Shown: in pieces, positions 30,171-63,987 of the stretch
How the letters are laid out: every line of letters begins with the position of its first letter
How positions within the stretch are numbered: position 1 is the stretch's first letter
NCBI GenBank assembly: GCA_902776615.1
Contig: CACYQU010000004.1
Location: 1,139 to 65,138 of the forward strand
DNA from: an uncultured bacterium
GTDB lineage: Bacteria; Verrucomicrobiota; Kiritimatiellia; RFP12; UBA1067
Direction: 5' to 3'
DNA: 64,000 nucleotides
Made by a program: the position numbers and the translations under genes
The notes under the pieces: model-generated
The model's database searches: none
Told to the model about the DNA's origin: nothing
The model's input: only the letters and a program-made list of their open reading frames with translations

Positions 30171-31373
30171 TCACCCTTGGTCGCGGCGAACCGCACCAAG
30201 AGTGAGCACAAATCTGCAGCCAGACGGTTCGACGGGCCTAAGCGCAATGTCGCCACCGTGGACTTTCGCAATCTCCCGAACTATCGCAAGGCCAAGACCG
30301 GAACCGCCCGTCTCTTCGGAACGCGCCGCATCGACACGGTAGAACCGCTCGAAAACCCGCTCACGCTCGGTTGCAGGAATCCCTACGCCATCGTCTTCTA
30401 CGACGACTCGCACCTTTCCCTGCACACCGGAAACAGACACTCTTATCTCCTTGGCGCCCGAGTGTCGTATGGCATTCCCGACAAGATTCGACACCGCCTG
30501 CTGCACCAGTCGCGAATCGCAGTTTGCAACCGCTGGCTTGTCGGCGCCCGATACGACAAGCCTCATTCCGGAAGACTCCGCACTTGGCCTCAACGCATCA
30601 ACCGCTTCAATCGCAAGCTCGGCGACATCGACCGGCTCTTTGGCGACATACGCCGATGCATCCGCGCGTTCGAGCCGCGCGAGCGATAGAACGTCCTGCG
30701 CCAGGACATTAAGCCTCACAGACTCCTTCTTCACGAGAGAAAGCAGTTTCATTACGCTTTCTTTGGGCATTTCATCCGCTCCTCCGAGAAGATCCACCGC
30801 GCCGATTATGCCCGTAAGAGGAGTCTTTATCTCGTGCGAAACATCTGCAATGAAGTCACGGCGGAATCTTTCGAGCCGCTTGAGTTCGCGAATGCGCACG
30901 CGTTGCCGGTAGGTCGAGAAGAAAACCATCAGCACTCCCGCGCCGCCGAGAAGCGCGGCCAGCAGAAAGCCGAATCTTGCGCGGCGAAACGGAGCAAGCA
31001 CTCTGTATAGGGGCAGGCCAAGCCTAACCGTGTATTCGCCGCAAGGACGCGAGACGTATATCGATTCGGGAACTTCATCCCCCTTCCGCACAGAATCGAA
31101 GAACACGCCCCGTTCGCCGATTTGCACGGTAAGCCTCACTCCATCCGCCGCACATGTGTCGCCGAATGTATGGATGCGCCTGAAATCGCCTGTCGCAAGC
31201 GGCTCCTTCAGTGTTTCGGCGGCAAGTTCGGTACGCGTCGCGAGGTCTCGCTCGGCCCACGACACGACTGCTCTTTTGAACGACGCGGCCTCTGTCCAGA
31301 AAAGCGCCGCGAATGCGGCAAGCCCCACCGCCGAAAGCGCGGCGGGGGCAAAATCAAGCATGCGCAGCTTCAT
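30171..31373 (-). CDS. Sensor histidine kinase (transmembrane region, HAMP, HisKA and HATPase domains).
   Basis: The H-box is FIADVSHEIKTPLTGIIGAVDLL and the G2 box is GGSGLGLAIVREIAKVHGG. The start at MKLRML overlaps the regulator's stop as ATGA. Confidence 0.85.
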   Translation of the reverse strand: MKLRMLDFAPAALSAVGLAAFAALFWTEAASFKRAVVSWAERDLATRTELAAETLKEPLATGDFRRIHTFGDTCAADGVRLTVQIGERGVFFDSVRKGDEVPESIYVSRPCGEYTVRLGLPLYRVLAPFRRARFGFLLAALLGGAGVLMVFFSTYRQRVRIRELKRLERFRRDFIADVSHEIKTPLTGIIGAVDLLGGADEMPKESVMKLLSLVKKESVRLNVLAQDVLSLARLERADASAYVAKEPVDVAELAIEAVDALRPSAESSGMRLVVSGADKPAVANCDSRLVQQAVSNLVGNAIRHSGAKEIRVSVSGVQGKVRVVVEDDGVGIPATERERVFERFYRVDAARSEETGGSGLGLAIVREIAKVHGGDIALRPVEPSGCRFVLTLGAVRRDQG

Positions 31374-32077
31374 GCCTTTATCCTGTATCCCACGCCGCGA
31401 ATGGTTTCGACATGATCGGCCCAACGGCCCAGCTTGCGTCTGAGGTTCGCGATTTGCACATCCACCGTACGCTCCGTGACCGATTTCTCGTCATCCTTCA
31501 GAACGGCATCTAGAATGCGCTGGCGCGCCAGGACACGTCCCTTGTTCCGCGCAAGCGACACAAGTATCCGAAATTCGCCGGGTGCGAGCTTCAAAGCCTC
31601 GCCATCGAGTGTTGCCGTATGATTTTCCTCGTCGATGGATAGTCCATCGAAATCATGCTCCGCCGTCGCAACAGGTCCACGCCTCAAAACCGCTCTTACG
31701 CGGGCAAGAAGCACCTCCCTGTCGAAAGGTTTCGTCACGTAATCGTCGGCGCCGCAGTTCAGTCCGCGAACAATGTCTTCGCGCTGCGTGCGCGCTGTCA
31801 GCATTATCACGCGGGTTGCGGCCAGGGATGGCGCCTCGCGGATTCTCGAACAGACCGTGAATCCATCCAATCCTGGCAGCATTATGTCAAGCAGGACGAG
31901 ATCCGGACGGCTGCGCCTGGCCTCGGCAAGGCCTTCATCGCCGCGCGCGACCGAATTCACATGCCTGAAACCTGCGCCAAGCAACGCCATTTCGAGGATG
32001 GTGCGAATAGTGGCGTCGTCCTCGACTATTAGAATTCGTGCTATATCGTCCATGTTCTCAACCAACGCCAAAGGCAA
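31370..32077 (-). CDS. OmpR-family winged-helix response regulator.
   Basis: Receiver domain ILIVEDDATIRTIL...LVLLDIMLPGLDG...KPF, and C-terminal trans_reg_C ending ...VETIRGVGYRIKA. Confidence 0.95.
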   Translation of the reverse strand: MPLALVENMDDIARILIVEDDATIRTILEMALLGAGFRHVNSVARGDEGLAEARRSRPDLVLLDIMLPGLDGFTVCSRIREAPSLAATRVIMLTARTQREDIVRGLNCGADDYVTKPFDREVLLARVRAVLRRGPVATAEHDFDGLSIDEENHTATLDGEALKLAPGEFRILVSLARNKGRVLARQRILDAVLKDDEKSVTERTVDVQIANLRRKLGRWADHVETIRGVGYRIKA

Positions 32078-32131
32078 TCCGCAGAAGAGTCTTTTAGCGA
32101 AACGCGCCGGGGTTGTGCCCCGGCGCGCCCG

Positions 32132-33178
32132 TCAGTTCTTGTAGGTGACGACGCCTTTGCCCTTTCGGATGACGCCTATCACATTGTAGCGCTGGTGTTG
32201 CGCCTTGAGTATGTTCGTCGCCTTTTCAACCTGGTTCTTCGGAATGATTATCACAAACCCTATTCCCATGTTGAATACGCGGTACATCTCGTCGCGTTCC
32301 ACCTTGCCCTGGCGCTCGATGAACTTGAAAATCGTCGGAACCTCCCAGCTGGCACGGTCGATTTCGGCATTGACGGCCTTTGGCAGCACGCGCGGCAGAT
32401 TGTCGGGGAATCCTCCGCCTGTGATGTGGGCCATTCCGTTGATCTTCACCTTGCGCTCCATGAGCTTGGCTACCGGCTTGAGGAAGCTCTTGTGCACCGC
32501 GAGGAGAGCCTCGCCGAACGTCTGGTTCGTCCCGGGCAGCTTATCCTTCCACGAATAGCCGCAGAGATCGAATATGACCTTGCGCGCGAGCGAAAAGCCG
32601 TTCGTCTGAAGCCCGCCCGAAGGCAGCCCGATGATCACATCGCCCGCCCTGATGGACTTGCCGGTGATGAGATCCTTTTTCGCGACATGACCGACGATGG
32701 TTCCCACCAGATCATACTCGCCCATAGGGTAGAGCCCGGGCATTTCGGCGGTTTCGCCGCCGAGAAGCGCCATCTTGTTCTCTTTGCAGGCTTTGCAAAG
32801 GCCGCTCACCACGGCCTTGAACTGCTGGGCGTCAAACTTTGCCGCGCCAACATAGTCCATAAAGAACAACGGCTTCGCGCCCTGAACGAGAATGTCGTTC
32901 ACACAGTGGTTGACAATGTCCTGCCCGACGGTGTCGTGCTTGTTCATCATCGCCGCCACCTTGAGCTTTGTGCCAACCCCGTCGGTCGAGGCGACAAGTA
33001 TCTCGTTGCGCCCCGGCGGAACCTTGTGCAGCCCGCCGAAGGAGCCTATTCCGCCGAGCGTGAGCTGGGTTTTCGTACCCGCGACCATCGACTTGATGGC
33101 GGCAAGAGCCGCCATCTTGTTGTCGATGTTCACGCCCGCCTTGGCGTAGGCGGATTTAGCATTGTCTGACATTGGCAT
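32132..33178 (-). CDS. purM: Phosphoribosylformylglycinamidine cyclo-ligase (AIR synthetase).
   Basis: Motifs SYAKAGVNIDN, ASTDGVGTKLKVA and HCVNDILVQGAKPLFFMDY. At 348 aa. Confidence 0.95.
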   Translation of the reverse strand: MPMSDNAKSAYAKAGVNIDNKMAALAAIKSMVAGTKTQLTLGGIGSFGGLHKVPPGRNEILVASTDGVGTKLKVAAMMNKHDTVGQDIVNHCVNDILVQGAKPLFFMDYVGAAKFDAQQFKAVVSGLCKACKENKMALLGGETAEMPGLYPMGEYDLVGTIVGHVAKKDLITGKSIRAGDVIIGLPSGGLQTNGFSLARKVIFDLCGYSWKDKLPGTNQTFGEALLAVHKSFLKPVAKLMERKVKINGMAHITGGGFPDNLPRVLPKAVNAEIDRASWEVPTIFKFIERQGKVERDEMYRVFNMGIGFVIIIPKNQVEKATNILKAQHQRYNVIGVIRKGKGVVTYKN

Positions 33179-34188
33179 CAGAGCTTGTCGTTGGATCCCA
33201 AGACCTTCATGATCTTGTGGATGTACATTTTCTTCATGTTCTCGCGAGCTGGCGTCAGGTACTGGCGCGGATCGAAGTGGTCGGGGTGCTCGGCGAAGTG
33301 CTTGCGGACGGCGGCCGTCATCGCGAGACGCGAGTCGCTGTCGATGTTGATCTTGCAGACCGCGCTCTTAGCGGCCTTGCGGAGCTGCTCTTCGGGAATG
33401 CCGACGGCATCGGGAAGCTTGCCGCCGTACTTGTTGATCGTATCGACTTCCTCCTGCGGAACGCTGGAGGAGCCGTGAAGCACGATCGGAAAGCCCGGAA
33501 GCTTCTTCTCGATCGCCTTGAGCACGTCGAACGCGAGCGGCGGCGGAATCAGTTTGCCGGTCTTGGGGTCGCGTGTGCACTGCTCGGGCTTGAACTTGTA
33601 GGCGCCGTGCGAGGTGCCGATCGAAATTGCGAGAGAATCGCAGCCGGTCTTGGTCGCGAACTCGACAACCTCCTCGGGCTTGGTGTAGTGGCTCTCGGCC
33701 GCAGACACCTCGTCTTCAACACCGGCGAGAACGCCGAGCTCCGCCTCGACAGTCACATAGTCCTTCTGCTTGTGGGCGTAGTTGACGACCTTCTTGGTGA
33801 GCTTGATGTTCTCGGCGAACGGAAGCGAGCTGCCGTCGATCATCACGCTCGAGAAGCCGGAGTCGATGCAGCTCTTGCACGTCTCGAAGCTGTCGCCATG
33901 GTCGAGATGGAGAACGATCTGAGGCTTCTTGCAGCCGAGCTCCTTGGCGTATTCCACGGCGCCCTGCGCCATGTAACGGAGAATCGTAGGATTGGCGTAC
34001 TTGCGCGCACCCTTTGAGACCTGCATGATTACGGGCGACTTCGTCTCGACCGCAGCCTGAACGATGGCCTGCATCTGCTCCATCGTGTTGAAATTGAACG
34101 CGGGAATCGCATAGCCGCCCTTGATGGCCTTTGCGAACATCTGCTTGGTATTGACGAGCCCTAGCTCTTTGTAGCTGGTCTTTTTCAT
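33178..34188 (-). CDS. fba: Class II fructose-1,6-bisphosphate aldolase. The start is at MKKTSYK..., preceded by GAAGG; the alternative in-frame ATG is at 34215.
   Basis: Motifs GGYAIPAFNFNTMEQ, LHLDHGDSFE, SVMIDGS and IGTSHGAYKF are all class II FBA signatures. Confidence 0.93.
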   Translation of the reverse strand: MKKTSYKELGLVNTKQMFAKAIKGGYAIPAFNFNTMEQMQAIVQAAVETKSPVIMQVSKGARKYANPTILRYMAQGAVEYAKELGCKKPQIVLHLDHGDSFETCKSCIDSGFSSVMIDGSSLPFAENIKLTKKVVNYAHKQKDYVTVEAELGVLAGVEDEVSAAESHYTKPEEVVEFATKTGCDSLAISIGTSHGAYKFKPEQCTRDPKTGKLIPPPLAFDVLKAIEKKLPGFPIVLHGSSSVPQEEVDTINKYGGKLPDAVGIPEEQLRKAAKSAVCKINIDSDSRLAMTAAVRKHFAEHPDHFDPRQYLTPARENMKKMYIHKIMKVLGSNDKL

Positions 34189-34261
34189 TTTGCCTTCGCT
34201 TTTATCCTGCGCCATATACTGTTTGGCCAGGACCCGCCGAGGCGCAGCCGGAGGCGAAGAC

Positions 34262-34338
34262 TGGTGGGCTATAGTGGATTCGAACCACTGACCTCTTCCA
34301 TGTCAAGGAAGCGCTCTAACCAACTGAGCTAATAGCCC
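34262..34338 (-). tRNA. tRNA-Val (anticodon GAC), with an encoded CCA.
   Basis: The transcript strand reads GGGCTATTAGCTCAGTTGGTTAGAGCGCTTCCTTGACATGGAAGAGGTCAGTGGTTCGAATCCACTATAGCCCACCA. The cloverleaf is canonical, with anticodon loop TTGACAT. Confidence 0.9.
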
Positions 34339-34351
34339 GTAAAAGTGAATG

Positions 34352-34366
34352 ATAGTATATCACATT
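34352..34366 (-). promoter_or_regulatory. Extended -10 TGTGATATACT, about 17 nt upstream of the tRNA-Val 5' end.
   Basis: The minus strand reads AAATGTGATATACTATCATTCACTTTTAC-GGGCTATT. Confidence 0.45.
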
Positions 34367-34631
34367 TGCCGACGGCCCGTCAAGGGGGGTAGAGCATTTT
34401 TTTGCAACCCAACTGCATTTCCACAAGCAAACCCGTTTTTAGCGCCAGTTTATTCGACATAATGAGTGCCTTTGACCGATAGAAACCGGTCGCTTGACCG
34501 GGAGAGCGCACGTCTCCTGGTCTGGGACACTCCCCGGTAGTTTCCCGTGCCGCCGCATTTCTGCGCCACCGCATGCGATGGCGATTGCGCACTTATTGCA
34601 ATAATCGTTCCAGACTTTCGCGGATTTGCAT

Positions 34632-34752
34632 CCCCTTAAGGGTGGCTTTTGTTTACCCTAAGGGTGAGAGCACTTCCCCCTTAGGGTTTCTTTAACTCCC
34701 CCTTAGGGTGAGGTCGCCTCACCCTTAGGGGTTCCGACACTTACCCTTAGGG
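34632..34752. repeat. Array of six CCCTTAGGG-type 9-bp quasi-palindromic boxes (one is CCCTAAGGG, one is CCCTTAAGGG), spaced 22 bp centre to centre and separated by 13-bp unique spacers.
   Basis: Read directly from the sequence, with box centres at about 34637, 34660, 34682, 34704, 34726 and 34748. Confidence 0.7.
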
Positions 34753-34839
34753 GGAAATCACACATGCCGCCATACGAATCTGCCATGGGGTCCATGGCCG
34801 ACTCGCCAGTCGCAACCGCCCTACTGGGAGAGCGCATAA

Positions 34840-34865
34840 CTGGGAGAGCGCAACCGCTCTCCCAG
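34840..34865 (-). terminator. Perfect 11-bp-stem hairpin (CTGGGAGAGCG-caac-CGCTCTCCCAG) about 50 nt downstream of the activase stop, a possible terminator with no U-tract.
   Basis: Read directly from the sequence. A third copy of CTGGGAGAGCGC lies 16 nt before it (34824-34835), which allows an alternative pairing. Confidence 0.3.
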
Positions 34866-34916
34866 TTGGGGGCTCTCACGGGTGTGTGCTGCCGTTGGGG
34901 CTGAGTCCATAGATGA

Positions 34917-35609
34917 CTAAGGCAGGGGCGGGGCAGTGAGGCTGAATGTTCTGCCGAGCATTGAATATTTCGCAGGGGCGGCCGTGTTGTAGGGCAAAAA
35001 CTCTATCGGAGCGCCAGCGGCGAAGGCGTTGAATGCGGTGCGGTCTTGCGGAGAATCGTTCACGCCAGGTATGCACGGCACACGGAAGACGAAAGGCACG
35101 CCCGCGCCGCGGAGCCATGCGATATTCTCCATGACTTGCGCAAGGCTCCCGCCCGTCCAGCGAGAGAACGCCGCAGGATCGAGCAGCTTCAAATCCTGAT
35201 AGACGAAGTCCATGAGCGAGACGACGCGCCTGTAGTCGGCGGCGCTCGCCGCGCCGCTCGTTTCGAGCGCAACCGAAACGCCCTTCTCCTTGAGGCGCAC
35301 TGCAAGCGCAGAGACAAAATCGGCCTGCGCGAGCGGTTCGCCGCCGGAAAATGTCACGCCGCCGCCGGACTGCGCCATTATGTCGGCGTTGACGAGCAGC
35401 TCCTCGGCGAGCGCGTCCACGCTCCAGTCGCGTCCGCAGACGACCCTTTCGCCGCTCTGCAGGACCATCGTCTCGATCTCGTGCGACTGGCCTTCGGGGT
35501 TGTGGCACCATGCGCAACGCAGCGGACAGCCCTTGAAGAACACTGTAGTCCGCACGCCCGGTCCGTCGTGCAGGGTGAATTCCCGAACTTCGAACGTTCG
35601 GCCCGTCAA
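34917..35609 (-). CDS. Glycyl-radical-enzyme activating protein (PFL-AE-family radical SAM enzyme). A TTG start at 35609 is assumed, overlapping the GRE stop as TTGA; the longest ORF would run to 35888.
   Basis: Radical-SAM cluster motif GPGVRTTVFFKGCPLRCAWCHNPEG, followed by the PFL-AE-like core. Confidence 0.85.
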   Translation of the reverse strand: MTGRTFEVREFTLHDGPGVRTTVFFKGCPLRCAWCHNPEGQSHEIETMVLQSGERVVCGRDWSVDALAEELLVNADIMAQSGGGVTFSGGEPLAQADFVSALAVRLKEKGVSVALETSGAASAADYRRVVSLMDFVYQDLKLLDPAAFSRWTGGSLAQVMENIAWLRGAGVPFVFRVPCIPGVNDSPQDRTAFNAFAAGAPIEFLPYNTAAPAKYSMLGRTFSLTAPPLP

Positions 35610-37681
35610 GATGCCGCCAGCTCCACACGCTTGATTATCTGGTCTTGGTACGGCTTGTCCAGCTCGATGAAATAGCCGCTCCATCCCCATACCCGAACGA
35701 TCAGATGGCGATGGCGTTCGGGGTGTTTCTGCGCGTCGAGCAGAGTGTCGCGATTGATCGTGTTGATCTGCATTTGGTGTCCGCCGCGGTCGATAAAGAA
35801 CTTTACGAGATGCGCCACCTTCTCTACGCCGTCGGGCATGGCGAACGCGGAATCGTGTATTTCGATCGTAAGAGGGCCGCCGTTGCACACCGGACCGAGA
35901 TTCGGCTCGGTGAAAGACCGGACGACCGAGATCGGGCCTTTCACGGGCACATCAAGCGACGGCGCGTAGTTCGCCGAGAACGGTTCGCCAGAGAGACGCC
36001 CGTCGGCGGATGCAGGCACATCCCGCGTGTGCCATATGTAATACATCGCACTACCCGTTCCGGGACGGAATATCCCGCCGCGATCGTTGCGGCGTCCGTC
36101 GAAGGCGTGGCCCCAGAAATCAATGAGCCACTTGGCGATTTCGTCCGCGCGCGGATCGGCGTTGCCCATCTTCGGCGCAGCCTTGGCGGCGGCACGGATG
36201 TCGTCCCGTCCGGCGAAGTCGGTGTCGAGAAGTTTGACAAGCTCTGCGAGAGTAAGAAGGCGCTTCTCGAACACCAACTCGCGTACTGATGCCAGCGAAT
36301 CGACGGCGACAGCGATTCCGGTTCCGTGGATTCCGAAGTTGTTGTATTTCGCGCCCTTCGAGATGTCGCGGGCCTTTTCTATGCAACCGGTGGAGATCAC
36401 CGATACGAATGGTCCCGGCAGAATCTCTACGTGGGAATATTTCCCGACAAGCGCGTCCGCGCGGCGCTGGACTTCGGCCTTGAACTCAGCCTTCACATCC
36501 TCGAAAGAGACGCCTTCCGCCGGAGCGAGGCGCCTCAGCGACGCGTCCAGCGCGCCGACGAAACTGACGGCGTCGATGTTGTTTATGTCCATTCCGCAAC
36601 CAGGCACGAGGAATTCCCAGCACGCGGCCACGGAATAGTCGCGCGCGTCCTCCGTCGCGTAGCCCCAGCGTTCTAGCGCGGGAATGACTACATCGTCGTT
36701 CGCATACTGCGGAAAGCCCAGCCCCTTCGCCGTAAGTTCGGTGCCAAGTTCGTATATTTCGATTGGCGTGGACTTGTCGACGCGAAGGTTGATCTTGGGA
36801 TCGACAAGCTTCAGTTCTCCGCACGCCTTGAGGCACAGGCGCGAGAGGTCGTTGAAAGCGGGCGCGCCGTCACGCGTAACGCCGCCAAGCATGACCGACT
36901 GTCCGTTGTCGCCCTGCTGAACGCCGATGTAAAGGTCGCTGTCGCGGTTGCAGGCGATGAAAAACTCTTCGAGCTCTTCAAGCGCGCCGTCCGCGGTGAG
37001 CCGTCCGGCGTCGAGGTCGGCCTTGTAATAGGGATAAAGGTACTGGTCGATGCGTCCGAGACCGCAGTGATACTCCCCTTCGCACCACATCGCATAGTGG
37101 AGAATCCTCAGCGACTGCAGCGCTTCGTGGAAGGTCCGCGCGCCTTTGAGCGGCACGTGCGCGAGCGTCGCGGCAATCTCGCAAAACCCGCGCGCCTCGG
37201 CCGCCTTGCGATAGCGCTCCGCAAGATCGAGCACGGCGCGAACCGAGAGCGCCGCGTTTTCTAGAAACTCCACGCCCTCGGCGTCGCCTTCGGCGCGACA
37301 CTTCCCAAGGCGCGCCGATATTTCGTCGAGCCGCGCGCCGAGTCCGTCGCGAATCGTCGGGCCGAAATCGGCCGTCAGGTTGAAGACGACCCCCTTCTCG
37401 CCAAACGCGGTTCCGGACGCGCGTCGCGCGTCCATCTCGGCATCGGTATGGAGATCGGGAATCTGGCGGACGGTCCGGAGGAACGCCAGGCGTTCGCCGT
37501 CCATGAACTCAGGGCGCTCCTCACGCAGCATTTCCTCAAGTCCAACACGCGCACGCACGACATCGCCTGTACCTTCGGCGACGAAACGCGCCAACAGCGG
37601 TTTCCAGTCCACATCGCGGCGGAACTTCGCCTGTTCGCGATCGAATGTTCTGTCAAGGAGGGACTTAATCCTCTCGGTCAT
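35606..37681 (-). CDS. Glycyl-radical enzyme of the PFL superfamily, compact at about 692 aa and of unknown substrate specificity.
   Basis: The C-terminal Gly-radical motif region is IVRVWGWSGYFIELDK, about 25 aa from the C-terminus. The mid-protein Cys-loop region is RDYSVAACWEFLVPGCGM. The PFL-like N-terminal helical and barrel regions are present, and the cognate activase is coupled immediately downstream. Confidence 0.88.
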   Translation of the reverse strand: MTERIKSLLDRTFDREQAKFRRDVDWKPLLARFVAEGTGDVVRARVGLEEMLREERPEFMDGERLAFLRTVRQIPDLHTDAEMDARRASGTAFGEKGVVFNLTADFGPTIRDGLGARLDEISARLGKCRAEGDAEGVEFLENAALSVRAVLDLAERYRKAAEARGFCEIAATLAHVPLKGARTFHEALQSLRILHYAMWCEGEYHCGLGRIDQYLYPYYKADLDAGRLTADGALEELEEFFIACNRDSDLYIGVQQGDNGQSVMLGGVTRDGAPAFNDLSRLCLKACGELKLVDPKINLRVDKSTPIEIYELGTELTAKGLGFPQYANDDVVIPALERWGYATEDARDYSVAACWEFLVPGCGMDINNIDAVSFVGALDASLRRLAPAEGVSFEDVKAEFKAEVQRRADALVGKYSHVEILPGPFVSVISTGCIEKARDISKGAKYNNFGIHGTGIAVAVDSLASVRELVFEKRLLTLAELVKLLDTDFAGRDDIRAAAKAAPKMGNADPRADEIAKWLIDFWGHAFDGRRNDRGGIFRPGTGSAMYYIWHTRDVPASADGRLSGEPFSANYAPSLDVPVKGPISVVRSFTEPNLGPVCNGGPLTIEIHDSAFAMPDGVEKVAHLVKFFIDRGGHQMQINTINRDTLLDAQKHPERHRHLIVRVWGWSGYFIELDKPYQDQIIKRVELAAS

Positions 37682-37717
37682 CTCGCACCAACCTTTCTCT
37701 AATCGCAACCGCCAACC

Positions 37718-37787
37718 ACTAACAACTAACAACTAACCACTAACGACTAACAACTAACCGCTAACCACTAACAACTAACCACTAATC
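37718..37787. repeat. Heptanucleotide microsatellite: ten tandem CTAACNN/ACTAACN units (GTTAGNN on the coding strand). It spans the MFS stop codon and the MFS-GRE intergenic region.
   Basis: Read directly from the sequence: actaaca actaaca actaacc actaacg actaaca actaacc gctaacc actaaca actaacc actaatc. Confidence 0.75.
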
Positions 37788-39145
37788 CCCAGTCTCGCCT
37801 CGATATCCTCAATCGTACCGCCCTTGGTCTCAGGCATGAAGAATACGGCCCAAACAAGCTGAACGGCCATCATGAACGCGAAGAACGCGAACGCCCACGT
37901 ACCTGCGCTCTCGGCCACGACAGGGAATGCCCATGAAATCACCGTGCACATGAACCAGTGGGTGAAGCAACCGAGGGCCTGTCCCTTCGCCCTTACGACA
38001 TTCGGGAATACTTCGGAGATGTAAACCCATATCACCGCACCGGACGATACCGCGAAGAACGCTATGAAGCCGAGAATGCCTGCCATGGCGATCGCGGCGT
38101 TCGGATGCGGCAGCGAGAGCTGCCACGCAACGAGCGCATGCATGACGATCATGAGAGAGGCGCCGCAGATGATGAGAGCGCGGCGTCCGAACCGGTCGAT
38201 GAAGAAGAACGCGAGAATCGTGAACGTGAGGTTCACCACGCCGACGCCTATCGTGCCCGCGAGCGCGGCGAGTTCGCTTCCCTCGCCGAAGATGAGCTGG
38301 AAGATGCGCGGCGCATAGTAGTTGATGGCGTTTATGCCCGACACCTGATTGAAGAACGCTATCAAAAACGCCAGCATGATCGGCTTGGCGTAGCGCCGCT
38401 GGAAGAGCGCGACCTTCACGCCATTGGCTGCGGCGCGCAGGGATTCCGCAATCTCGGCAAGGGTCTTCTCGATTTCGGGATAGCCGATGCGCTCAAGAAC
38501 GCCGCGCGCGGCGTTCGCGCGATTCGCCCTCACAAGCCAGCGCGGAGATTCGGGAATCGTCGCGAGAAGCGCCATGAAAAGCGCAATCGGCACGCACTCC
38601 ATGCCAAGCATCACGCGCCACACAAGCTTGGGGTCGGCATTCGGCATGAACCGCGCCACGAGATAGTTTGAGATGTACGAGACCAGAATGCCGAACACGA
38701 TGTTGAGCTGATTCATCGCCACGAGCCGACCCCTGTATCTGCCGGGCGATACCTCGACAATGTAGAGCGGCACGACAACCGAAACGCCGCCTATAGCGAG
38801 CCCGCCGATGAAGCGGAACCATCCAAGCAAATGCGGCCCGAAAACCGGGCTGTGCGGAGTGAACGCGCAGCCCACTGCGGAGACGAGGAAGAGAACCGCC
38901 ATCAGCCACAGCGTCGGTTTGCGTCCCCACTTGTCGGACGGCGCGCCGGCGGTGAAAACGCCGATCACGGTTCCGATAAGCGCACCGGAGACGATAAGTC
39001 CGTGCCAAAACGCCGAAAGCGAAAACTCCGACTGGATGGCTTTTTCGCATCCGGAGATGACCCCCGAATCGAAACCGAAGAGGAATCCGCCCAAAGCGGC
39101 TACAACAACTATGTAAAAAAGAGACTTGTTCATTCGCTTAACCAA
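37775..39145 (-). CDS. MFS sugar porter (sugar:H+ symporter family), 12 transmembrane segments.
   Basis: Motifs GFLFGFDSGVISG, DKWGRKPT (the GRK motif) and IPESPRWL (the PESPR motif). At 456 aa. Confidence 0.9.
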   Translation of the reverse strand: MVKRMNKSLFYIVVVAALGGFLFGFDSGVISGCEKAIQSEFSLSAFWHGLIVSGALIGTVIGVFTAGAPSDKWGRKPTLWLMAVLFLVSAVGCAFTPHSPVFGPHLLGWFRFIGGLAIGGVSVVVPLYIVEVSPGRYRGRLVAMNQLNIVFGILVSYISNYLVARFMPNADPKLVWRVMLGMECVPIALFMALLATIPESPRWLVRANRANAARGVLERIGYPEIEKTLAEIAESLRAAANGVKVALFQRRYAKPIMLAFLIAFFNQVSGINAINYYAPRIFQLIFGEGSELAALAGTIGVGVVNLTFTILAFFFIDRFGRRALIICGASLMIVMHALVAWQLSLPHPNAAIAMAGILGFIAFFAVSSGAVIWVYISEVFPNVVRAKGQALGCFTHWFMCTVISWAFPVVAESAGTWAFAFFAFMMAVQLVWAVFFMPETKGGTIEDIEARLGISG

Positions 39146-39191
39146 ACATCATAGCATTTTCCGGGCGGATATTGCGTATCTCCGTATTTGA

Positions 39192-42100
39192 TTACCTGAC
39201 GATGATCATCATGCCAGGAGGCTCCGGCGCCCACTCAAGCTTGATGGTCTTGCCGACGAAATTTGTCTCGCTGTAGTCGAATTCCCTTCCGCTTTGGAAC
39301 GAACCCATCTTCTCCCAGTTGCCGTTCTCAAGCTCATAATAAAGGCGATAGCCAGCAACATCTTTGAGGTTTCCTTTGACGTCCTTGACCTTCGTCGCGG
39401 TGAACATCCAGCTTCCCTCGACCTTGTACGCGCCAGTCGCCTCGGCAAGCTCCTCCGCATCGCCCGCAACATCGGCGTACTTCGTCGTCACCAGTACGTT
39501 CGTCACGCCCAGCTCGCCGAAGTAGCGCGCGCTATCGACATTGCGGTTGCGGACGAGTTCCTCCTGCGTGAGAATGCGGTCGTAGAAGCGGAAGTCCTTC
39601 ACGGTGCCGACAAGGTAGCTGTCGGCTCCGCCGCCCCAGCCGCCGAGGGCCAGCTTGCCGACGTGGGCATCGGCCATCGACGACCGCTCCAGATATCCGT
39701 CCGCGATGGTTCCTCCGGTCGGCGGCTCGGTCCCCGTGAACACGGTCGCAGTGCGCTCGGCGTCGTCCAGCATCGTCGTCACGTAGGTGAAGCGCTCGGC
39801 ATCCGCGTTGGCGACATGTGGCATGTCATTGTGCGAATTAAGCCCCTGCGTGTGGAACCAGACTGTCTTGGGATTGGAGGTGCCGCAGATAACCAGCGCC
39901 ATTTTGCTCCAAGCGGAGGAATAGACGTAGTTCTCGCCATTGCCCGCCTTGTTATCGTCATAGAGGGCGTCCAGAACGGTCTGCTCCGTATAGGTCCGGT
40001 TCCAGACGTTCGATACCGCCGTCATGAACTTGCTCTTGCCGCCGAAGGCATAGCCGTCCGACGCCCAGGCGCTGTCGTCGTCACCCTTGGTGAGGCTCAT
40101 GTTGTAGTAGTCTCCGCCCGAACCGACGTTGACCCACTTCGAGGCGGTCGTGCTGTGCGCCACGCCGACGCCGGCGTTGAGAAGGCCGTCGTAGTGGAGG
40201 CGGAGCCCGGCGGGCGAGTAGTCGTCGAAGCCGTAGTCCGAGGCGGTGCGAAGGCCGCGCACGGGACGCCAGCGCCATGTGAGGCGGACGGCGCCTGCGG
40301 AGGTGGAGTAGGCGTAGGAGCAGGAATCGTAGGAGACGGGATTCGTCCACTCCGCACCGCTCCGCTGCTCAAGGATGTAGCCGTCGCAGACGTAGGTGAT
40401 GCCATTCGTGGCCGTCACGCTCTCCGGCGCGACGAAGGTGTAGGAGCCGACGACCTCGTAGCCGCCGCACTTGTCGTAGCCTTCGATGTAGGAGTAGGTC
40501 GATTGGACAATGACGTTCGGTTCGGCGTAGCGCCCGAAGTACCGGTATTCGTCGACCTTGCGGTTCTTAGCGACCTCGGCGTCGGTGAGCGCGCGGTTGT
40601 AGAGGCGAAAATCGTGGAGCGTCCCGTTAAAGCTCTGGAGGTTGGCGGCGTCCCCGGAGCGTCCGTGGAAGCCTCCGACGCTGAACCAGGTCACGTTGGT
40701 CGCCGGGGAGTCACCATCGATGGCCGGGGCGTCGGTGCCGCCGGCTGCCGGCCGCGCGGTGCCGCCGAAGATGTAGGTGGTCTTGGTGTCGTCATAATCG
40801 GCGATCACGGTCACGTAGGACGGCCTTGCGCCCGCCGGGTAGAAGTTGGGGCGCGCGTCCGGGTGGACGGTCGAGTTCACATAGTAAACGCTGTTGGCGT
40901 TGCCGTTCGCGGCGCTGTTGTTCGACTTGCGCATCGCAACGCTGCCATAGCTCCATCCGTGCTGGCCCGTCCAAAGGTAGGCGGGGTCGCCAAGCTGGTC
41001 GGCAATGGCACCCGTCACCGAAATCTGCACCGTGAAATTGGCGGGGACAGCAAACGGATCGCCATCGTTCCACTTGGCGAAATAGGACTTGCCGTTGAAG
41101 GCGAAGCCGTTCTCCGCCCACTCGCCCTGCGCGGCGCTGTTGCGGGCCCATGCGTAATTGCCGGCGGTATTTTCGAGATAGGAGCACCGGTCCATCGGCC
41201 AGCGGGCCGCGTAGCCGGGCGCGATGTTCTTCCACTGCATGGCGGCGGAGTCGTGCGCCGCGTCCGCGCCGACGTTGCGGATGCCGTCGTAGTGCAGGAG
41301 AAGACCGTCGGTCACATAGTCGTCCAGACCGTAGATCGCAAGCGAGCCTTCGCCAGGGACGGTGGAGTATTGCCAGGTGATGCGGACCTTCCCGGAAGAC
41401 GTCGCGGTGCAGGACGATTCGCCGTCGTGCGAAACGGGTTCTCCCCAATCGGAGTCGTTCCAGGTTTCCAGCGTGTAGCCGGAAAGGACGTGGCGCTTGC
41501 CGTTCACGGTGCGCTGCGCAGGGGCGGTAAACGTGAAACCCTCTGCGTCAAGCGCGTAGGCGCCGCACGGCTGATCGCCCTCGGCGCCGGGCGCGCTCGT
41601 GGCGACGACCACGTTCGTCATGGGAATCGGCGCGGAGGCGCGGAAAAAGCGCCATTCGTCGATCACGCGGTTCCACGCGAGGTCTTCCCCAGAGAGCGCC
41701 TTGGAGTAGTAGCGGATGGCGTGGAGTGTGCCGTTGAATGACTGGAGGGAGTTGCTGGCTTTTCTCGTGCGCGGCGGGTTGTCGTATTGAGAGCCGATCG
41801 CGAACCAGGGGTTGACGTCCTCCGCCGTCCTCGAACCGGCCTTGTAGGAGTTGCCGCCGGTCGAAGCCGTCGGAATCTCCGTTCCCTCGAAGACCCGGAT
41901 GGCTACCGTATCGGAGAGGATGGTCGCGTAGCGGGGATTGGCGTTCGAAAAGTTGGGGCGCGGCGTGTTGGCGCCGAAGCGGGTCCTGTCGATGGCGTAG
42001 ACGGCGTTCGCGGGCGTGGTGGAGCCGTTTGAGCCGTTTTCGGACTGGCGGATGGCGACGGCCCCGTATTCCCAGCCCTTCCCGGGCCGGAAGATGTAGC

Positions 42101-42578
42101 CCGTCGTGCCGTTCTCGTCCTTGAGGTCGGCGGTCGAAGCCGTCATCGCGAACTGGAGCGTGTAGGCGGGCCCCATGCTGAATGAGACCTTCGTCGCGGC
42201 AAAGCCCTCAAGCCCGTCAAAGGCGAAGCCGTTCGCGGTCCACGCGCCGTTCGCGGTGTTGCCGTCTTCGCGGGCGTACGAGTCGGCGGTCCCCTGCTTG
42301 ACCCAGCTGTACCATACGAGCGGACACTCGCCGTCCGAGGCCAGGTTCGCCCAGGTGACGGCCGCGTCGGAATGCGCGGCGTCCGCGCCGACGTTGCGGA
42401 TGCCGTCGTAGTGGAGGACAAGTCCGTCCTGGACGTAGTCGCCGACATCGTATGCCTTGAAGTCGGGGTTGTCCCAATACTTCACTCCCGCATATGCTGC
42501 GGAGGCGAATGAACAGGCCAGCGCAGCGACCGAAAGACGCGCGCCGGAGGCGAGAAGCTTTCCAGATATGCTTTTCAT
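39192..42578 (-). CDS. Large secreted protein (~1128 aa) built from three ~330-aa repeats, each containing a LamG/ConA-like lectin domain and a beta-sandwich domain. The start is at MKSISGKL..., which carries the signal peptide.
   Basis: Signal peptide MKSISGKLLASGARLSVAALACSFASAAYA. The repeats start YDVGDYVQDGLVLHYDGIRNVGADAAH, YGLDDYVTDGLLLHYDGIRNVGADAAH and YGFDDYSPAGLRLHYDGLLNAGVGVAH. The LamG_3 C-terminal strands are FNGTLHAIRYYSKALSGEDLAWN, FNGTLHDFRLYNRALTDAEVAKN and GTVKDFRFYDRILTQEELVRN. Its own -10 box and an AAGGAAGGA ribosome-binding site are present. Confidence 0.85.
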   Translation of the reverse strand: MKSISGKLLASGARLSVAALACSFASAAYAGVKYWDNPDFKAYDVGDYVQDGLVLHYDGIRNVGADAAHSDAAVTWANLASDGECPLVWYSWVKQGTADSYAREDGNTANGAWTANGFAFDGLEGFAATKVSFSMGPAYTLQFAMTASTADLKDENGTTGYIFRPGKGWEYGAVAIRQSENGSNGSTTPANAVYAIDRTRFGANTPRPNFSNANPRYATILSDTVAIRVFEGTEIPTASTGGNSYKAGSRTAEDVNPWFAIGSQYDNPPRTRKASNSLQSFNGTLHAIRYYSKALSGEDLAWNRVIDEWRFFRASAPIPMTNVVVATSAPGAEGDQPCGAYALDAEGFTFTAPAQRTVNGKRHVLSGYTLETWNDSDWGEPVSHDGESSCTATSSGKVRITWQYSTVPGEGSLAIYGLDDYVTDGLLLHYDGIRNVGADAAHDSAAMQWKNIAPGYAARWPMDRCSYLENTAGNYAWARNSAAQGEWAENGFAFNGKSYFAKWNDGDPFAVPANFTVQISVTGAIADQLGDPAYLWTGQHGWSYGSVAMRKSNNSAANGNANSVYYVNSTVHPDARPNFYPAGARPSYVTVIADYDDTKTTYIFGGTARPAAGGTDAPAIDGDSPATNVTWFSVGGFHGRSGDAANLQSFNGTLHDFRLYNRALTDAEVAKNRKVDEYRYFGRYAEPNVIVQSTYSYIEGYDKCGGYEVVGSYTFVAPESVTATNGITYVCDGYILEQRSGAEWTNPVSYDSCSYAYSTSAGAVRLTWRWRPVRGLRTASDYGFDDYSPAGLRLHYDGLLNAGVGVAHSTTASKWVNVGSGGDYYNMSLTKGDDDSAWASDGYAFGGKSKFMTAVSNVWNRTYTEQTVLDALYDDNKAGNGENYVYSSAWSKMALVICGTSNPKTVWFHTQGLNSHNDMPHVANADAERFTYVTTMLDDAERTATVFTGTEPPTGGTIADGYLERSSMADAHVGKLALGGWGGGADSYLVGTVKDFRFYDRILTQEELVRNRNVDSARYFGELGVTNVLVTTKYADVAGDAEELAEATGAYKVEGSWMFTATKVKDVKGNLKDVAGYRLYYELENGNWEKMGSFQSGREFDYSETNFVGKTIKLEWAPEPPGMMIIVR

Positions 42579-42603
42579 TTTGGCAGTTCCTTCCTTTGTG
42601 CCT

Positions 42604-42616
42604 ATATTATACCATA
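42604..42616 (-). promoter_or_regulatory. Extended -10 TGGTATAAT, about 30 nt upstream of the LamG-protein ATG and followed by a ribosome-binding site AAGGAAGGA.
   Basis: The minus strand reads TTTATGGTATAATATAGGCACAAAGGAAGGAACTGCCAAAATG. Confidence 0.45.
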
Positions 42617-42704
42617 AACTTACTTCCAATATTCGCGAATAGTCGTTATTTGGACTTACGCCCGATGGCCGCCACAGCCCACCCATTGATATCGCGACGA
42701 GAAT

Positions 42705-42714
42705 AATGTATAAT
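42705..42714 (+). promoter_or_regulatory. Extended -10 TGTATAAT, about 30 nt upstream of rph and divergent from the LamG promoter.
   Basis: The plus strand reads GAATAATGTATAATCTCTCCCGC...ATG. Confidence 0.4.
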
Positions 42715-42743
42715 CTCTCCCGCAAAGCAAAGGTCAACAAGAT

Positions 42744-63759: not shown

Positions 63760-63795
63760 TTTCACCGCACCTGGGAGAGCAGGAGTCTCGCCCGC

Positions 63796-63987
63796 TCAGA
63801 TGGAAAATGCGAAACCATCCTTATTCTCGTGAGACTCCCCGTTGTTCGAGGCTGATTGTGACATAGGGATGTTCGGGGAAACCGTATTCCTCTTCAGGAG
63901 CGATGTATGTGACGCTGGTGGCTGTGCGTGGCATTTCATAAGGTATATCCCCATGGAAGACTCCATTTTCGGAGAAAAACCCGACAT
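63796..63987 (-). CDS. Small ORF (63 aa) of uncertain reality, lying in the 250-bp region upstream of asd.
   Basis: It is ATG-initiated and bounded by an upstream in-frame stop. GC3 is lower than in neighbouring genes and no motif was recognised. Confidence 0.2.
   Translation of the reverse strand: MSGFSPKMESSMGIYLMKCHAQPPASHTSLLKRNTVSPNIPMSQSASNNGESHENKDGFAFSI

What the first reader, a model, noticed from the sequence alone, without database searches (positions are those of the whole stretch)
34632..34752. Six phased CCCTTAGGG boxes (22-bp period, 13-bp unique spacers) in the largest non-coding gap, upstream of tRNA-Val
Six copies of a 9-bp quasi-palindrome sit at a strict 22-23 bp centre-to-centre spacing, which is about two helical turns and puts them on the same face of the DNA. 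The copies are four CCCTTAGGG, one CCCTAAGGG and one palindromic CCCTTAAGGG, and each spacer is 13 bp of unrelated sequence. The array lies in a 577-bp gene-free region (34339-34916) between the glycyl-radical activase 3' end and the tRNA-Val promoter. That region also holds a perfect AT-rich palindrome TTATTGCAATAA (~34594-34605), two CCATGG sites 10 bp apart (~34781-34796), and an 11-bp-stem GC hairpin. The geometry is that of an iteron, centromere-like (parC/parS-type) or cooperative operator array for a dimeric HTH protein. It is not CRISPR-like, because the repeat is 9 bp and the spacers 13 bp. No cognate binding-protein gene is obvious nearby, so the bound factor, if any, is unknown.
Basis: seen in the sequence. 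Interest (0 to 1): 0.75.

Follow-up and report, generated by a model that had tools for sequence, protein, structure and literature searches.

The report
Dispersed phased-palindrome intergenic repeat, one copy
The six evenly spaced CCCTTAGGG boxes are real, but they are not a private operator or plasmid-type iteron of this locus: they are one copy of an apparently undescribed family of scattered intergenic repeats in gut Kiritimatiellota/Lentisphaerota, whose boxes and 22-bp spacing are kept while the spacers drift.

Summary
Five exact CCCTWAGGG boxes and one CCCTTAAGGG box lie 22-22.5 bp apart at 34633-34752, against 0.13 boxes expected in the whole window.

The single-locus reading (iteron, centromere or operator) is not supported.
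- The same architecture (same core, 22-bp period, a terminal CCCTTAAGGG unit) occurs on about 58 contigs of one Lentisphaerota MAG. It also occurs four times in a Kiritimatiellota MAG and in several gut or rumen metagenome contigs.
Their gene contexts are unrelated to the window's.
- Two relatives that keep tRNA-Val-FBA-AIRS synteny lack the array.

The gap is therefore a mosaic of dispersed modules: R 16-mers, head, array and a palindrome/sigma-54-like module.

Between paralogous copies the box cores differ at 0-1 of 45 positions and the spacers at 13-31 of 52, with no indels. There is no arm covariation, no Rfam match and no fixed relation to promoters or gene orientation.

The best reading is a REP/BIME/NIME-like dispersed element whose boxes are phased recognition sites for an unknown protein acting in trans. 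That protein and the element's function were not identified.

The parts
34632..34752 (-). Array module. Six boxes at 22-bp period: 34744-52, 34722-30, 34700-08 and 34678-86 read CCCTAAGGG on the minus strand, 34656-64 reads CCCTTAGGG, and the terminal 10-bp box CCCTTAAGGG is at 34633-42.
   Evidence: The polarity pattern (four TAA boxes, one TTA box, then a TTAA-type terminal box) is shared with L112 and L127. A terminal CCCTTAAGGG at the same end is seen in 43-49 Spyradenecus copies and in L025.
34753..34822 (-). Head module H: AGGGCGGTTGCGACTGGCGAGTCGGCCATGGACCCCATGGCAGATTCGTATGGCGGCATGTGTGATTT.
   Evidence: The BLAST hit that covers head plus array is 90% identical to L112 over 178 nt. The head is also present in L103 and L128, each time immediately 5' of a CCCTWAGGG array, in different gene contexts. 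In L128 a second, inverted partial copy flanks the array.
34823..34877 (-). R module: GCGCTCTCCCAGT(TAT) units at 34823-35 and 34839-51, and an inverted unit at 34854-66, which together form the GC hairpin.
   Evidence: (pair I3). The copy number of the 16-mer differs in L002 (three direct copies). The sequence of L002 diverges from the window inside this module. R also occurs next to arrays in L103, L127, L128 and L138.
34581..34619 (-). P module: GAAAGTCTGGAACGATTATTGCAATAAGTGCGCAATCGC. It holds a sigma-54-like TGGAAC-N5-TTGCA (34612->34597) overlapping the palindrome TTATTGCAATAA(GT).
   Evidence: It is 90% identical to L112 1004-1042, where it lies about 150 nt upstream of the head rather than downstream of the array.
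34497..34509 (-). A solitary fourth R unit (GCGCTCTCCCGGT), followed by a weak terminator-like hairpin at 34501->34486.
34262..34383 (-). tRNA-Val(GAC) gene (34338->34262) with its TTGACG-18-TATACT promoter (34383->34354). This is a neighbour of the element, not part of it.
   Evidence: The tRNA and promoter are conserved in L091 and L154, which lack the array.
63762..63800 (-). A second dispersed module in the window: the G hairpin plus an R-like unit (GCATTTTCCATCTGAGCGGGCGAGACTCCTGCTCTCCCAGG), just upstream of the promoter of the asd-like gene at 63740->62730.
   Evidence: The G motif is detected at this site in L145, L148 and L149 and not in L146, L147 and L150, all of which encode the identical asd-like protein.

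Best explanation
The 34632-34752 array, with the ~70-nt head 5' of it on the minus strand (34753-34822) and the R units beyond, is one copy of a dispersed, modular intergenic repeat family. The family is found in gut and rumen Kiritimatiellota and Lentisphaerota.

What is shown:
- The family is dispersed, and it is absent from this locus in syntenic relatives.
- Head and array stay linked in unrelated gene contexts.
- The 9-11-bp palindromic cores (consensus ACCCTWAGGGT) and the exact 22-bp register are kept while the spacers diverge.

What is inferred:
- The boxes are recognition sites for a sequence-specific, probably dimeric, protein encoded elsewhere.
- Placing the sites every two helical turns puts them on one face of the DNA, so several dimers can bind side by side.
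- That protein is either the enzyme that spreads the element (selection then acts on mobility) or a host factor. The evidence here does not decide between the two.
- The array is not a regulator dedicated to tRNA-Val or to the glycyl-radical operon.
For: Dispersal
- A scan of 185,579 species genomes for three phased boxes found 87 loci.
- About 58 of these are separate contigs of the single MAG Ca. Spyradenecus faecavium, often at contig ends. Four lie in one Kiritimatiellota MAG (two on one contig). Others are in Ca. Spyradenecus sp. and a Lentisphaeraceae MAG.
- 43-49 Spyradenecus copies share three CCCTAAGGG boxes, a terminal CCCTTAAGGG, the 22-bp period and a tail.

Same element elsewhere
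- The window is from Kiritimatiellae.
- L112, L103 and L128 carry the window's head directly before an array but sit next to different genes.
- L002 has the same array with a different upstream neighbour.
- Syntenic relatives L091 and L154 have tRNA-Val-FBA-AIRS but no array.

Selection
- Among window, L112, L127 and L114 the cores differ at 0-1 of 45 positions and the spacers at 13-31 of 52, with no indel over five units (Fisher p from 1.5e-4 to 1e-11).

DNA motif rather than hairpin
- Arm complementarity within a unit is no better than between units.
- In Spyradenecus an A.G mismatch next to the core is fixed in 40 of 43 and 35 of 43 copies, and no compensatory changes are seen.
- No Rfam family matches.
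- All four flanking-gene orientations occur.
Against: - No binding protein was identified. No protein family recurs next to the arrays in 62 loci.
- Only one array was found in about 75 kb of the window's own genome. Dispersal is therefore shown in relatives and in metagenomes with a near-identical head, not in this genome itself.
- The loci were found by requiring three exact boxes at fixed spacing, so part of the core conservation is ascertainment. Only the extra boxes, the register and the head are free observations.
- As a single strand the array folds far better than shuffles (-69 kcal/mol, z = -6). Flank complementarity between boxes 1:4 and 2:3 goes beyond the core.
- In a Lentisphaeraceae subfamily the AT-rich spacer is constant and the GC core varies (CCCTNAGGG, CCCCACGGGG, CCCCGGGGG). 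That fits 'any GC palindrome' better than one fixed recognition sequence.
Confidence: 0.5

Rival explanations
1. A structure-driven REP-like element. The palindromes act as hairpins in RNA (3'-UTR stabiliser, terminator or processing sites after the glycyl-radical operon), or as hairpins in single-stranded DNA recognised by a HUH/RAYT-type transposase.
For: - The minus-strand RNA fold is -69 kcal/mol against -44.8 for shuffles (z = -6). It pairs box 1 with 4, 2 with 3 and 5 with 6, using extra flank complementarity.
- The array lies downstream of the activase gene on the same strand.
- In Spyradenecus the unit is a 15-19-bp near-palindrome. Several upstream ORFs end at or inside the first boxes, as is known for REPs close to stop codons.
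- A Lentisphaeraceae subfamily keeps palindromy while changing the core.
Against: - In the window the intra-unit stem is only 3-4 bp.
- There is no unit-specific covariation in the arms, and the A.G mismatches are conserved.
- The strict 22-bp register is not needed for independent hairpins.
- Arrays occur in every orientation relative to the neighbouring genes, including upstream of divergent genes.
- No Y1-transposase-like recurrent neighbour was found.
- No Rfam match.
Confidence: 0.22
2. An enhancer (UAS) array for a sigma-54 activator. The activator would drive the adjacent TGGAAC-N5-TTGCA promoter (34612->34597, minus strand) and a short RNA running towards tRNA-Val.
For: - A good -24/-12 match starts 20 bp downstream of the last box, putting the boxes at roughly -55 to -165.
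- Both elements are conserved in the L112 copy of the P module while its spacer differs.
- Sigma-54 promoters exist in this clade: a perfect TGGCACGGAGGTTGCA precedes the start of a gene I read as gltB (no domain search run) in L063.
Against: - In L112 the P module lies upstream of the head, not downstream of the array, so the two have no fixed relation.
- Only 1 of 49 Spyradenecus arrays has a sigma-54-like site downstream.
- No GAFTGA, ESELFG or Walker-A activator signature occurs anywhere in the six-frame translation of the window.
- The downstream 200 nt folds no better than shuffles (z = -1.1), and only a weak terminator is present.
- The TTGCA belongs to a 12-16-bp palindrome that can explain its conservation on its own.
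Confidence: 0.07
3. One reading: a single-locus iteron, centromere-like or operator array, for example a remnant of an integrated plasmid or the operator of a nearby regulator.
For: - The 22-bp phasing is that of classical plasmid iterons (my own knowledge of R6K, pPS10 and RK2).
- An OmpR-type response regulator and kinase lie 2.3 kb away on the same strand.
Against: - The architecture is dispersed in many copies in relatives.
- No plasmid, phage or viral match.
- No rep or par gene was found among the nine flanking ORFs scanned against Pfam (30171-42827).
- The array is absent from syntenic relatives that keep the tRNA-Val-FBA-AIRS genes. The response regulator and kinase are not seen downstream of AIRS in those relatives' gene tables.
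- OmpR-family proteins bind direct, not palindromic, repeats (established knowledge).
Confidence: 0.04
4. A translational and transcriptional insulator. Each box carries TAA on one strand and TAG on the other, and 22 = 1 mod 3, so any three consecutive boxes stop translation in all six frames. The element would be tolerated, or selected, because it ends stray translation at gene boundaries.
For: - The window array has 2-4 stops in every one of the six frames.
- The variant end boxes CCCTTAAGGG and CCCCTAGGGG also carry stops on both strands.
- Several Spyradenecus ORFs use a box as their stop codon or end within about 25 nt of the array.
Against: - Any A/T-centred palindrome tends to contain stop codons.
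- The Chloroflexota arrays use 21-bp as well as 22-bp steps, and 21 does not rotate the frame.
- CCCCACGGGG and CCCCGGGGG variants have no stops.
- It does not explain conservation of the flanking CCC/GGG or of positions +-1.
Confidence: 0.07

Closest known systems
REP / BIME elements of Enterobacteria and Pseudomonas (RAYT-associated repetitive extragenic palindromes)
   Same: Short palindromic units confined to intergenic DNA, with tens of copies per genome in carriers. They cluster into mosaics with other small modules, often lie close to gene ends, have a patchy phylogenetic distribution, and sit at sites of rearrangement (the L002/window breakpoint lies in the R module).
   Different: - REP units are 20-40-nt imperfect hairpins that alternate in orientation within BIMEs and have variable linkers.
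- Here the conserved core is 9-11 bp, units are in direct orientation, and the period is an exact 22 bp.
- No RAYT-like gene was seen in the held flanks.
- No hairpin covariation was found.
Neisseria intergenic mosaic elements (NIMEs) built from dRS3 repeats (ATTCCC-N8-GGGAAT). Compared from my own knowledge.
   Same: Short repeats with GC-rich inverted termini recur in arrays, separated by variable sequence, and form intergenic mosaics. They are thought to be protein (recombinase) target sites and recombination hot spots.
   Different: NIME spacers are 50-150-bp repeat units, not 13-bp free sequence, and there is no strict helical phasing. The taxa and motif also differ.
BOX elements of Streptococcus pneumoniae (boxA-boxB(n)-boxC). 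Compared from my own knowledge.
   Same: Modular head, variable number of tandem internal units, and tail; about 100 dispersed intergenic copies; MITE-like.
   Different: BOX units are 45-59 bp and are conserved along their whole length. Here only a 9-11-bp core and the register are conserved.
Plasmid replication iterons (R6K, pPS10, RK2), and multi-site transposon ends (Tn7 TnsB sites, Mu R1-R3). Compared from my own knowledge.
   Same: Several protein-binding sites at about 22-bp spacing, so that bound monomers or dimers lie on one face. This is what the array most likely works like.
   Different: Those sites are asymmetric 17-22-bp repeats at one locus, next to the gene of the binding protein. 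Here the sites are palindromic, dispersed, and without a linked gene.

Membership tests
REP/BIME (RAYT-mobilised) | Tens to hundreds of extragenic copies per genome | tested here: inconclusive
   Met in relatives: about 58 contigs of Ca. Spyradenecus faecavium and 4 arrays in Kiritimatiellota bin71. In the window's own genome only 1 array was seen in about 75 kb; the whole genome was not available.
REP/BIME (RAYT-mobilised) | Unit is a 20-40-nt imperfect palindrome that forms its own stem-loop | tested here: not met
   The window units are palindromic only over 9-11 bp, and arm complementarity within a unit equals that between units. The Spyradenecus units are 15-19-bp near-palindromes but carry fixed mismatches and show no compensatory change.
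REP/BIME (RAYT-mobilised) | Alternating orientation of units within clusters | tested here: not met
   Units are head-to-tail with the same central-base polarity: four TAA then one TTA in the window, L112 and L127, and all TAA in Spyradenecus.
REP/BIME (RAYT-mobilised) | A cognate Y1 (RAYT) transposase gene flanked by the repeats | tested here: inconclusive
   No protein family recurs beside the arrays in 62 PVC loci. Only up to 8 kb per locus was held, and a RAYT is usually present once per genome.
Plasmid iterons | Direct repeats in helical phase next to a rep gene and an AT-rich unwinding region, at one locus per replicon | tested here: not met
   The phase is met (22 bp). No rep gene was found among the nine flanking ORFs scanned against Pfam (30171-42827), the array type is dispersed, and there is no plasmid similarity.
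parC/parS-type centromere | Site array adjacent to a parA/parM-parB/parR operon | tested here: not met
   The Pfam scan of nine flanking ORFs shows an aldolase, AIRS-like protein, response regulator, kinase, radical-SAM activase, glycyl-radical enzyme, MFS transporter and a Laminin_G_3 protein, and no partition genes. The array type occurs at many loci.
CRISPR | Repeats of 23-50 bp, spacers of 26-72 bp, leader, cas genes | tested here: not met
   The repeat is 9-11 bp and the spacers 11-13 bp. The same spacers recur in about 45 Spyradenecus copies. A conserved leader-like head does exist, but the spacer differences between window and L112 are point divergence, not polar addition.
Sigma-54 enhancer (UAS) array | Sites about 70-200 bp upstream of a -24/-12 promoter, with the association kept in homologous copies and an activator (bEBP) present | tested here: not met
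   A promoter-like site is present in the window. However, its module lies on the other side of the head in L112, and it is absent from 48 of 49 Spyradenecus copies. No bEBP signature occurs in the 64 kb.
MITE | Terminal inverted repeats and target-site duplication; empty sites in relatives | tested here: inconclusive
   L128 has about 25-bp inverted copies of the head flanking the array. The window, L112 and L002 have one head only. No target duplication was recognised. Relatives L091 and L154 lack the array, but they are too diverged to define an empty site.

The most novel reading that the evidence does not exclude
Phased ACCCTWAGGGT arrays are landing pads for an uncharacterised sequence-specific DNA-binding system shared by Kiritimatiellota, Lentisphaerota and some Chloroflexota. 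These would be genome-wide intergenic platforms of 3-7 dimers on one DNA face, acting as chromosome-organising or insulating elements with built-in six-frame stop codons, and not merely as selfish repeats. Supporting hints: Chloroflexota arrays with the same core and a 21-22-bp period sit at orthologous loci in different genomes or metagenome contigs, with conserved boxes and diverged spacers (L004/L038 and L019/L130).
Probability: 0.2. Interest if true: 0.75.

Novelty: new variant of a known kind. Interest (0 to 1): 0.45.

Why it matters
Dispersed intergenic repeats (REP, BIME, NIME, BOX, MITE) shape bacterial genome rearrangement, mRNA fate and assembly quality. None seems to have been described for Kiritimatiellota or Lentisphaerota: two full-text literature searches found nothing relevant.

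This family is unusual because what is conserved is a very short palindromic core plus an exact two-turn register, while the spacers are free. That is the signature of a protein-binding array, not of a hairpin, and so it predicts a specific, findable binding protein.

There are also practical consequences:
- The family breaks MAG assemblies; many Spyradenecus copies sit at contig ends.
- It marks rearrangement breakpoints (window versus L002).
- It shows that a striking 'operator-like' array next to a tRNA gene should not be read as local regulation.

Tried and rejected
- **Sigma-54 UAS plus sRNA.** This was my first hypothesis, from TGGAACGATTATTGCA at 34612->34597. I rejected it as a general explanation after finding that the P module is placed differently in L112, that 48 of 49 Spyradenecus copies lack it, that no bEBP motif occurs in the window, and that the downstream RNA has no structure signal.
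- **Known RNA family.** No Rfam hit at E<=1 over 33000-36500, and no hit at gathering threshold in 18 related loci apart from tRNAs.
- **Phage or plasmid origin.** Zero hits for the three-box pattern and for the head in IMG/VR, and zero blastn hits in the phage and plasmid collections.
- **Conserved regulator of tRNA-Val.** Syntenic relatives L091 and L154 lack the array.
- **Linked protein.** All-against-all BLASTP of ORFs around 62 PVC arrays found no recurrent family. The ORFs next to L103 and L128 were only listed and read by eye, with no domain search.
- **Fixed distance to sigma-70 promoters.** None found.
- **Small protein.** An ORF runs from the head into the array (MDPMADSYGGMCDFPLRV...). 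It keeps its frame in L112, L103 and L128, but all three window/L112 differences in its head-encoded part are non-synonymous and there is no Shine-Dalgarno sequence, so it is probably non-coding (by inspection).
- **Bacteroidales, Porphyromonas and other hits** of the pattern scans are ordinary tandem repeats with identical spacers, or 11-mer satellites. I treat them as ascertainment noise.
- **Literature.** A search by sequence returned only primer matches. A search on PVC repeats returned nothing relevant.
- **Stricter metagenome pattern.** A pattern of four boxes plus the terminal box found nothing.
- **'Largest non-coding gap'.** My GC3-based gene caller was too unreliable on this window to verify the claim.

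Full report
**1. The observation**

The window holds five exact CCCTWAGGG boxes, all between 34656 and 34752 and exactly 22 bp apart. The expectation for the whole window is 0.13, and none of 100 shuffles reaches five. A sixth box, the 10-bp CCCTTAAGGG, lies at 34633-34642.

Two refinements apply.
- tRNA-Val(GAC) is on the minus strand (34338->34262), with a TTGACG-18-TATACT promoter at 34383->34354.
- The spacers are not wholly unrelated. TRF prefers a 44-bp period, and alternate units share 71-81% identity. The array therefore probably grew by duplicating a two-unit block.

**2. Anatomy on the transcribed strand**

All neighbouring genes read on the minus strand: the MFS transporter, the glycyl-radical enzyme and its radical-SAM activase (stop at 34917), then the gap, then tRNA-Val, class II aldolase (FBA), an AIRS-like gene, and an OmpR-type regulator with its kinase.

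Read on that strand, the gap contains in order:
- GCGCTCTCCCAGT units that form the GC hairpin (34877-34823)
- a ~70-nt stretch containing the CCATGG pair (34822-34753)
- the six boxes (four TAA-polarity, one TTA, then the terminal TTAA box)
- a TGGAAC-N5-TTGCA sigma-54-like site overlapping the AT palindrome (34612-34593)
- about 200 nt of sequence
- the tRNA promoter

**3. The array architecture is a dispersed family in related phyla**

A scan of one genome per 185,579 species for three boxes with 12-14-nt gaps found 87 loci.
- About 58 are separate contigs of a single Lentisphaerota MAG, Ca. Spyradenecus faecavium, often at contig ends.
- Others come from Ca. Spyradenecus sp., a Lentisphaeraceae MAG, and a Kiritimatiellota MAG with four arrays, two of them on one contig.
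- A second group, with a 21-22-bp period, comes from Anaerolineales and other Chloroflexota.
- The Bacteroidales and Porphyromonas hits are plain tandem repeats with identical spacers and are best treated as ascertainment noise.

The Spyradenecus copies share one design: three CCCTAAGGG boxes, a terminal CCCTTAAGGG, a 22-bp period, and usually a tail (TTTCGGAAA-N9-ACTTAT) followed by a variable GC hairpin. The terminal 10-bp box sits at the same end, relative to box polarity, as in the window. The same is true in the Kiritimatiellota locus L025.

The arrays are intergenic and occur in all four flanking-gene orientations. No protein family recurs beside them.

**4. The window's lineage and its orthologous loci**

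The aldolase is 92-94% identical to proteins named 'Kiritimatiellae bacterium'. Other window proteins are 50-66% identical to Spyradenecus loci. Two relatives keep tRNA-Val-FBA-AIRS synteny but have no array upstream of the tRNA (L091; L154). The array is therefore a lineage-specific acquisition, not a conserved control region of the tRNA.

A second assembly, L002, has the identical array, P module and tRNA side. Its upstream neighbour differs, and the divergence point lies inside the GCGCTCTCCCAGT units, whose copy number also differs.

**5. The window's own element recurs elsewhere**

A scan of JGI metagenomes for three boxes with 13-nt gaps returned 45 loci. Three of them (L112, L103, L128) carry the window's ~70-nt 'head' (GCGACTGGCGAGTCGGCCATGGACCCCATGGCAGATTCGTATGGCGGCATG...) immediately before a CCCTWAGGG array.
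- Head plus array is 90% identical to L112 over 178 nt.
- The gene contexts are unrelated to the window's. From my reading of the translated sequence (no domain search was run), L112 follows an aspartyl-tRNA synthetase gene and a CPBP-type protease gene. L103 and L128 lie elsewhere.

Other modules recur as well:
- the R 16-mers
- a GAGCGGGCGAGACGCCCGCTC hairpin (G)
- the P module that carries the sigma-54-like site

In L112 the P module lies about 150 nt upstream of the head instead of downstream of the array. A second G-R module lies in the window at 63762-63800. The G motif is detected at that site in L145, L148 and L149 but not in L146, L147 and L150, which all encode the identical asd-like protein. 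The gap is therefore a mosaic of shuffled, dispersed modules.

The further 10 kb of the same contig that I could fetch holds no further array. In this genome I can therefore document only one array in about 75 kb.

**6. What is conserved**

Aligned in register, the window, L112, L127 and L114 differ at 0-1 of 45 core positions and at 13-31 of 52 spacer positions. There is no indel over five units (Fisher p from 1.5e-4 to 1e-11). Three of them (window, L112, L127) share the box-polarity pattern A-A-A-A-T.

The search required three exact boxes, so part of this conservation is ascertainment. The additional boxes, the register and the head were not required by the search.

Positions +-1 are mostly A and T/G, which gives ACCCTWAGGGT. 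Further out, each lineage has its own arm consensus: AAA/TTT in Spyradenecus, TCA/TGA in the window type, and TA/TA in a rumen type.

**7. Tests of mechanism**

*Hairpin or RNA.* The array folds very well as a single strand (z = -6), and flanks of boxes 1:4 and 2:3 are complementary beyond the core. Against this:
- Within-unit arm complementarity is no better than between units.
- Spyradenecus copies keep fixed A.G mismatches and show no compensatory changes.
- No Rfam family matches.
- Orientation relative to genes is random.

*Sigma-54 enhancer.* The site is a good match and is conserved in L112. However, the module is not positionally linked to the array. It is absent from 48 of 49 Spyradenecus copies. 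No activator signature exists in the window. The downstream RNA shows no structure signal.

*Iteron or centromere.* No rep or par genes were found among the nine flanking ORFs scanned. There is no plasmid, phage or viral similarity, and the family is dispersed.

*Sigma-70 promoter element.* There is no consistent distance to such promoters.

*Six-frame stops.* Because 22 = 1 mod 3 and each box carries TAA on one strand and TAG on the other, the array stops all six frames. Some Spyradenecus ORFs end in the first boxes. This may help insertions to be tolerated, but it is not a sufficient explanation.

**8. Conclusion**

The best-supported statement is that the finding is one copy of a dispersed, modular intergenic repeat (R units, head, phased array) of gut and rumen Kiritimatiellota and Lentisphaerota. 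I put confidence in this classification at about 0.85.

The most likely mechanism is inferred, not shown: the boxes are recognition sites for a dimeric protein acting in trans, held on one DNA face by the two-turn register. That protein could be the element's mobilising enzyme or a host factor. I put about 0.5 on this DNA-level binding reading. My estimates for the alternatives are about 0.22 for a hairpin-based REP-like mechanism, about 0.07 each for the sigma-54 enhancer and the six-frame-stop insulator, and about 0.04 for the single-locus reading.

**9. Comparison with known systems**

The array works like an iteron or a multi-site transposon end: phased binding sites. It is distributed like REP/BIME, NIME or BOX elements. 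It fails the REP definition on unit length, orientation and hairpin covariation. It fails the iteron and centromere definitions on linkage and uniqueness, and it fails the CRISPR definition on sizes. I found no description of such a family in PVC bacteria. I therefore rate it a new variant of a known kind, dispersed intergenic repeats, of moderate interest.

**10. Limits**

- No whole genome of the window organism was available.
- The binder is unknown.
- There are no expression data.
- It is unproven whether the Chloroflexota arrays are related to the PVC arrays by homology or by convergence.

Noticed in passing
window 37714-37785: There are about ten tandem copies of a heptamer (AACCACT/AACAACT; also scored as a 21-mer x3.4). 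They lie at the junction between the MFS transporter gene (ends 37775) and the start of the glycyl-radical enzyme ORF (37732). That ORF begins only at position 160 of the PFL-like profile. This could be a slipped-strand (phase-variable) tract or a low-complexity N-terminus.
   Followed up: no
window 63762-63800; L145-L150: A second dispersed module (the G hairpin GAGCGGGCGAGAC.CC.GCTC plus an R-like CTCTCCCAGG) sits directly upstream of the TATGGTATAAT promoter of the asd-like gene. The G motif is detected at this site in three of six contigs that encode the identical asd-like protein (L145, L148, L149) and not in the other three.
   Followed up: partly
L002 300-400 versus window 34820-34880: L002 encodes the identical FBA protein and has the same array and tRNA side, but a different upstream gene and three instead of two direct GCGCTCTCCCAGTTAT units. 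Its sequence diverges from the window inside this repeat, which suggests that the repeat mediates rearrangement.
   Followed up: partly
L004/L038, L019/L130, L139/L141/L035 (Chloroflexota): Arrays with the same core (consensus CACCCTWAGGGTG) at a 21-22-bp period occur on at least 9 contigs of one Anaerolineales MAG. They also sit at orthologous loci in different genomes or metagenome contigs, with conserved boxes, diverged spacers and differing box numbers. Whether they are homologous to the PVC arrays or convergent is unknown.
   Followed up: partly
L030, L041, L052, L060, L067, L087: A Lentisphaeraceae / Spyradenecus sp. subfamily reverses the conservation pattern. The AT-rich spacer ATAATTCAATTAA is constant at a 22-bp period, while the GC core varies (CCCTTAGGG, CCCTGAGGG, CCCCACGGGG, GCCCGTGGGG, CCCCGGGGG).
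   Followed up: no
window 34632-34752: The array puts stop codons in all six reading frames: TAA or TAG from each box, with the frame rotated because the period is 22 = 1 mod 3.
   Followed up: partly
window 34788->34696 (minus strand); L112 1237-1329: A 30-codon ORF (MDPMADSYGGMCDFPLRVSVGTPKGEATSP) starts at the first CCATGG of the head and ends at the TAA of box 3. The frame is kept in L112, L103 and L128, but all differences in its head-encoded part are non-synonymous and there is no Shine-Dalgarno sequence, so it is probably not coding.
   Followed up: partly
L128 837-862 and 1089-1113: The head motif CCATGGCAGATTCGTATGGCGGCATG occurs as an inverted pair flanking a ~275-bp unit (array, K module and a terminator-like hairpin). 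This is a terminal-inverted-repeat, MITE-like arrangement that is not seen in the window copy.
   Followed up: partly
L154 1750-2000: In a sister lineage the space upstream of tRNA-Val is filled by a different repeat: blocks of CGATTTA/CGATTTG heptamers in inverted orientation around a central hairpin.
   Followed up: no
window 40123-42452: There are three ~1.1-kb-spaced internal repeats (71-75% identity over 113 nt, and longer at the protein level) inside the 1211-aa Laminin_G_3 protein gene.
   Followed up: no
Spyradenecus loci, e.g. L020, L043, L047, L064, L066, L071: Intergenic regions of this MAG are packed with other short dispersed repeats, including GGAAGTTTGGAGGTTTGG octamer runs, GGAGAACAGAGAACGG runs and CGCCCCTGCGGGGCGA hairpins. 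This explains the highly fragmented assembly.
   Followed up: no
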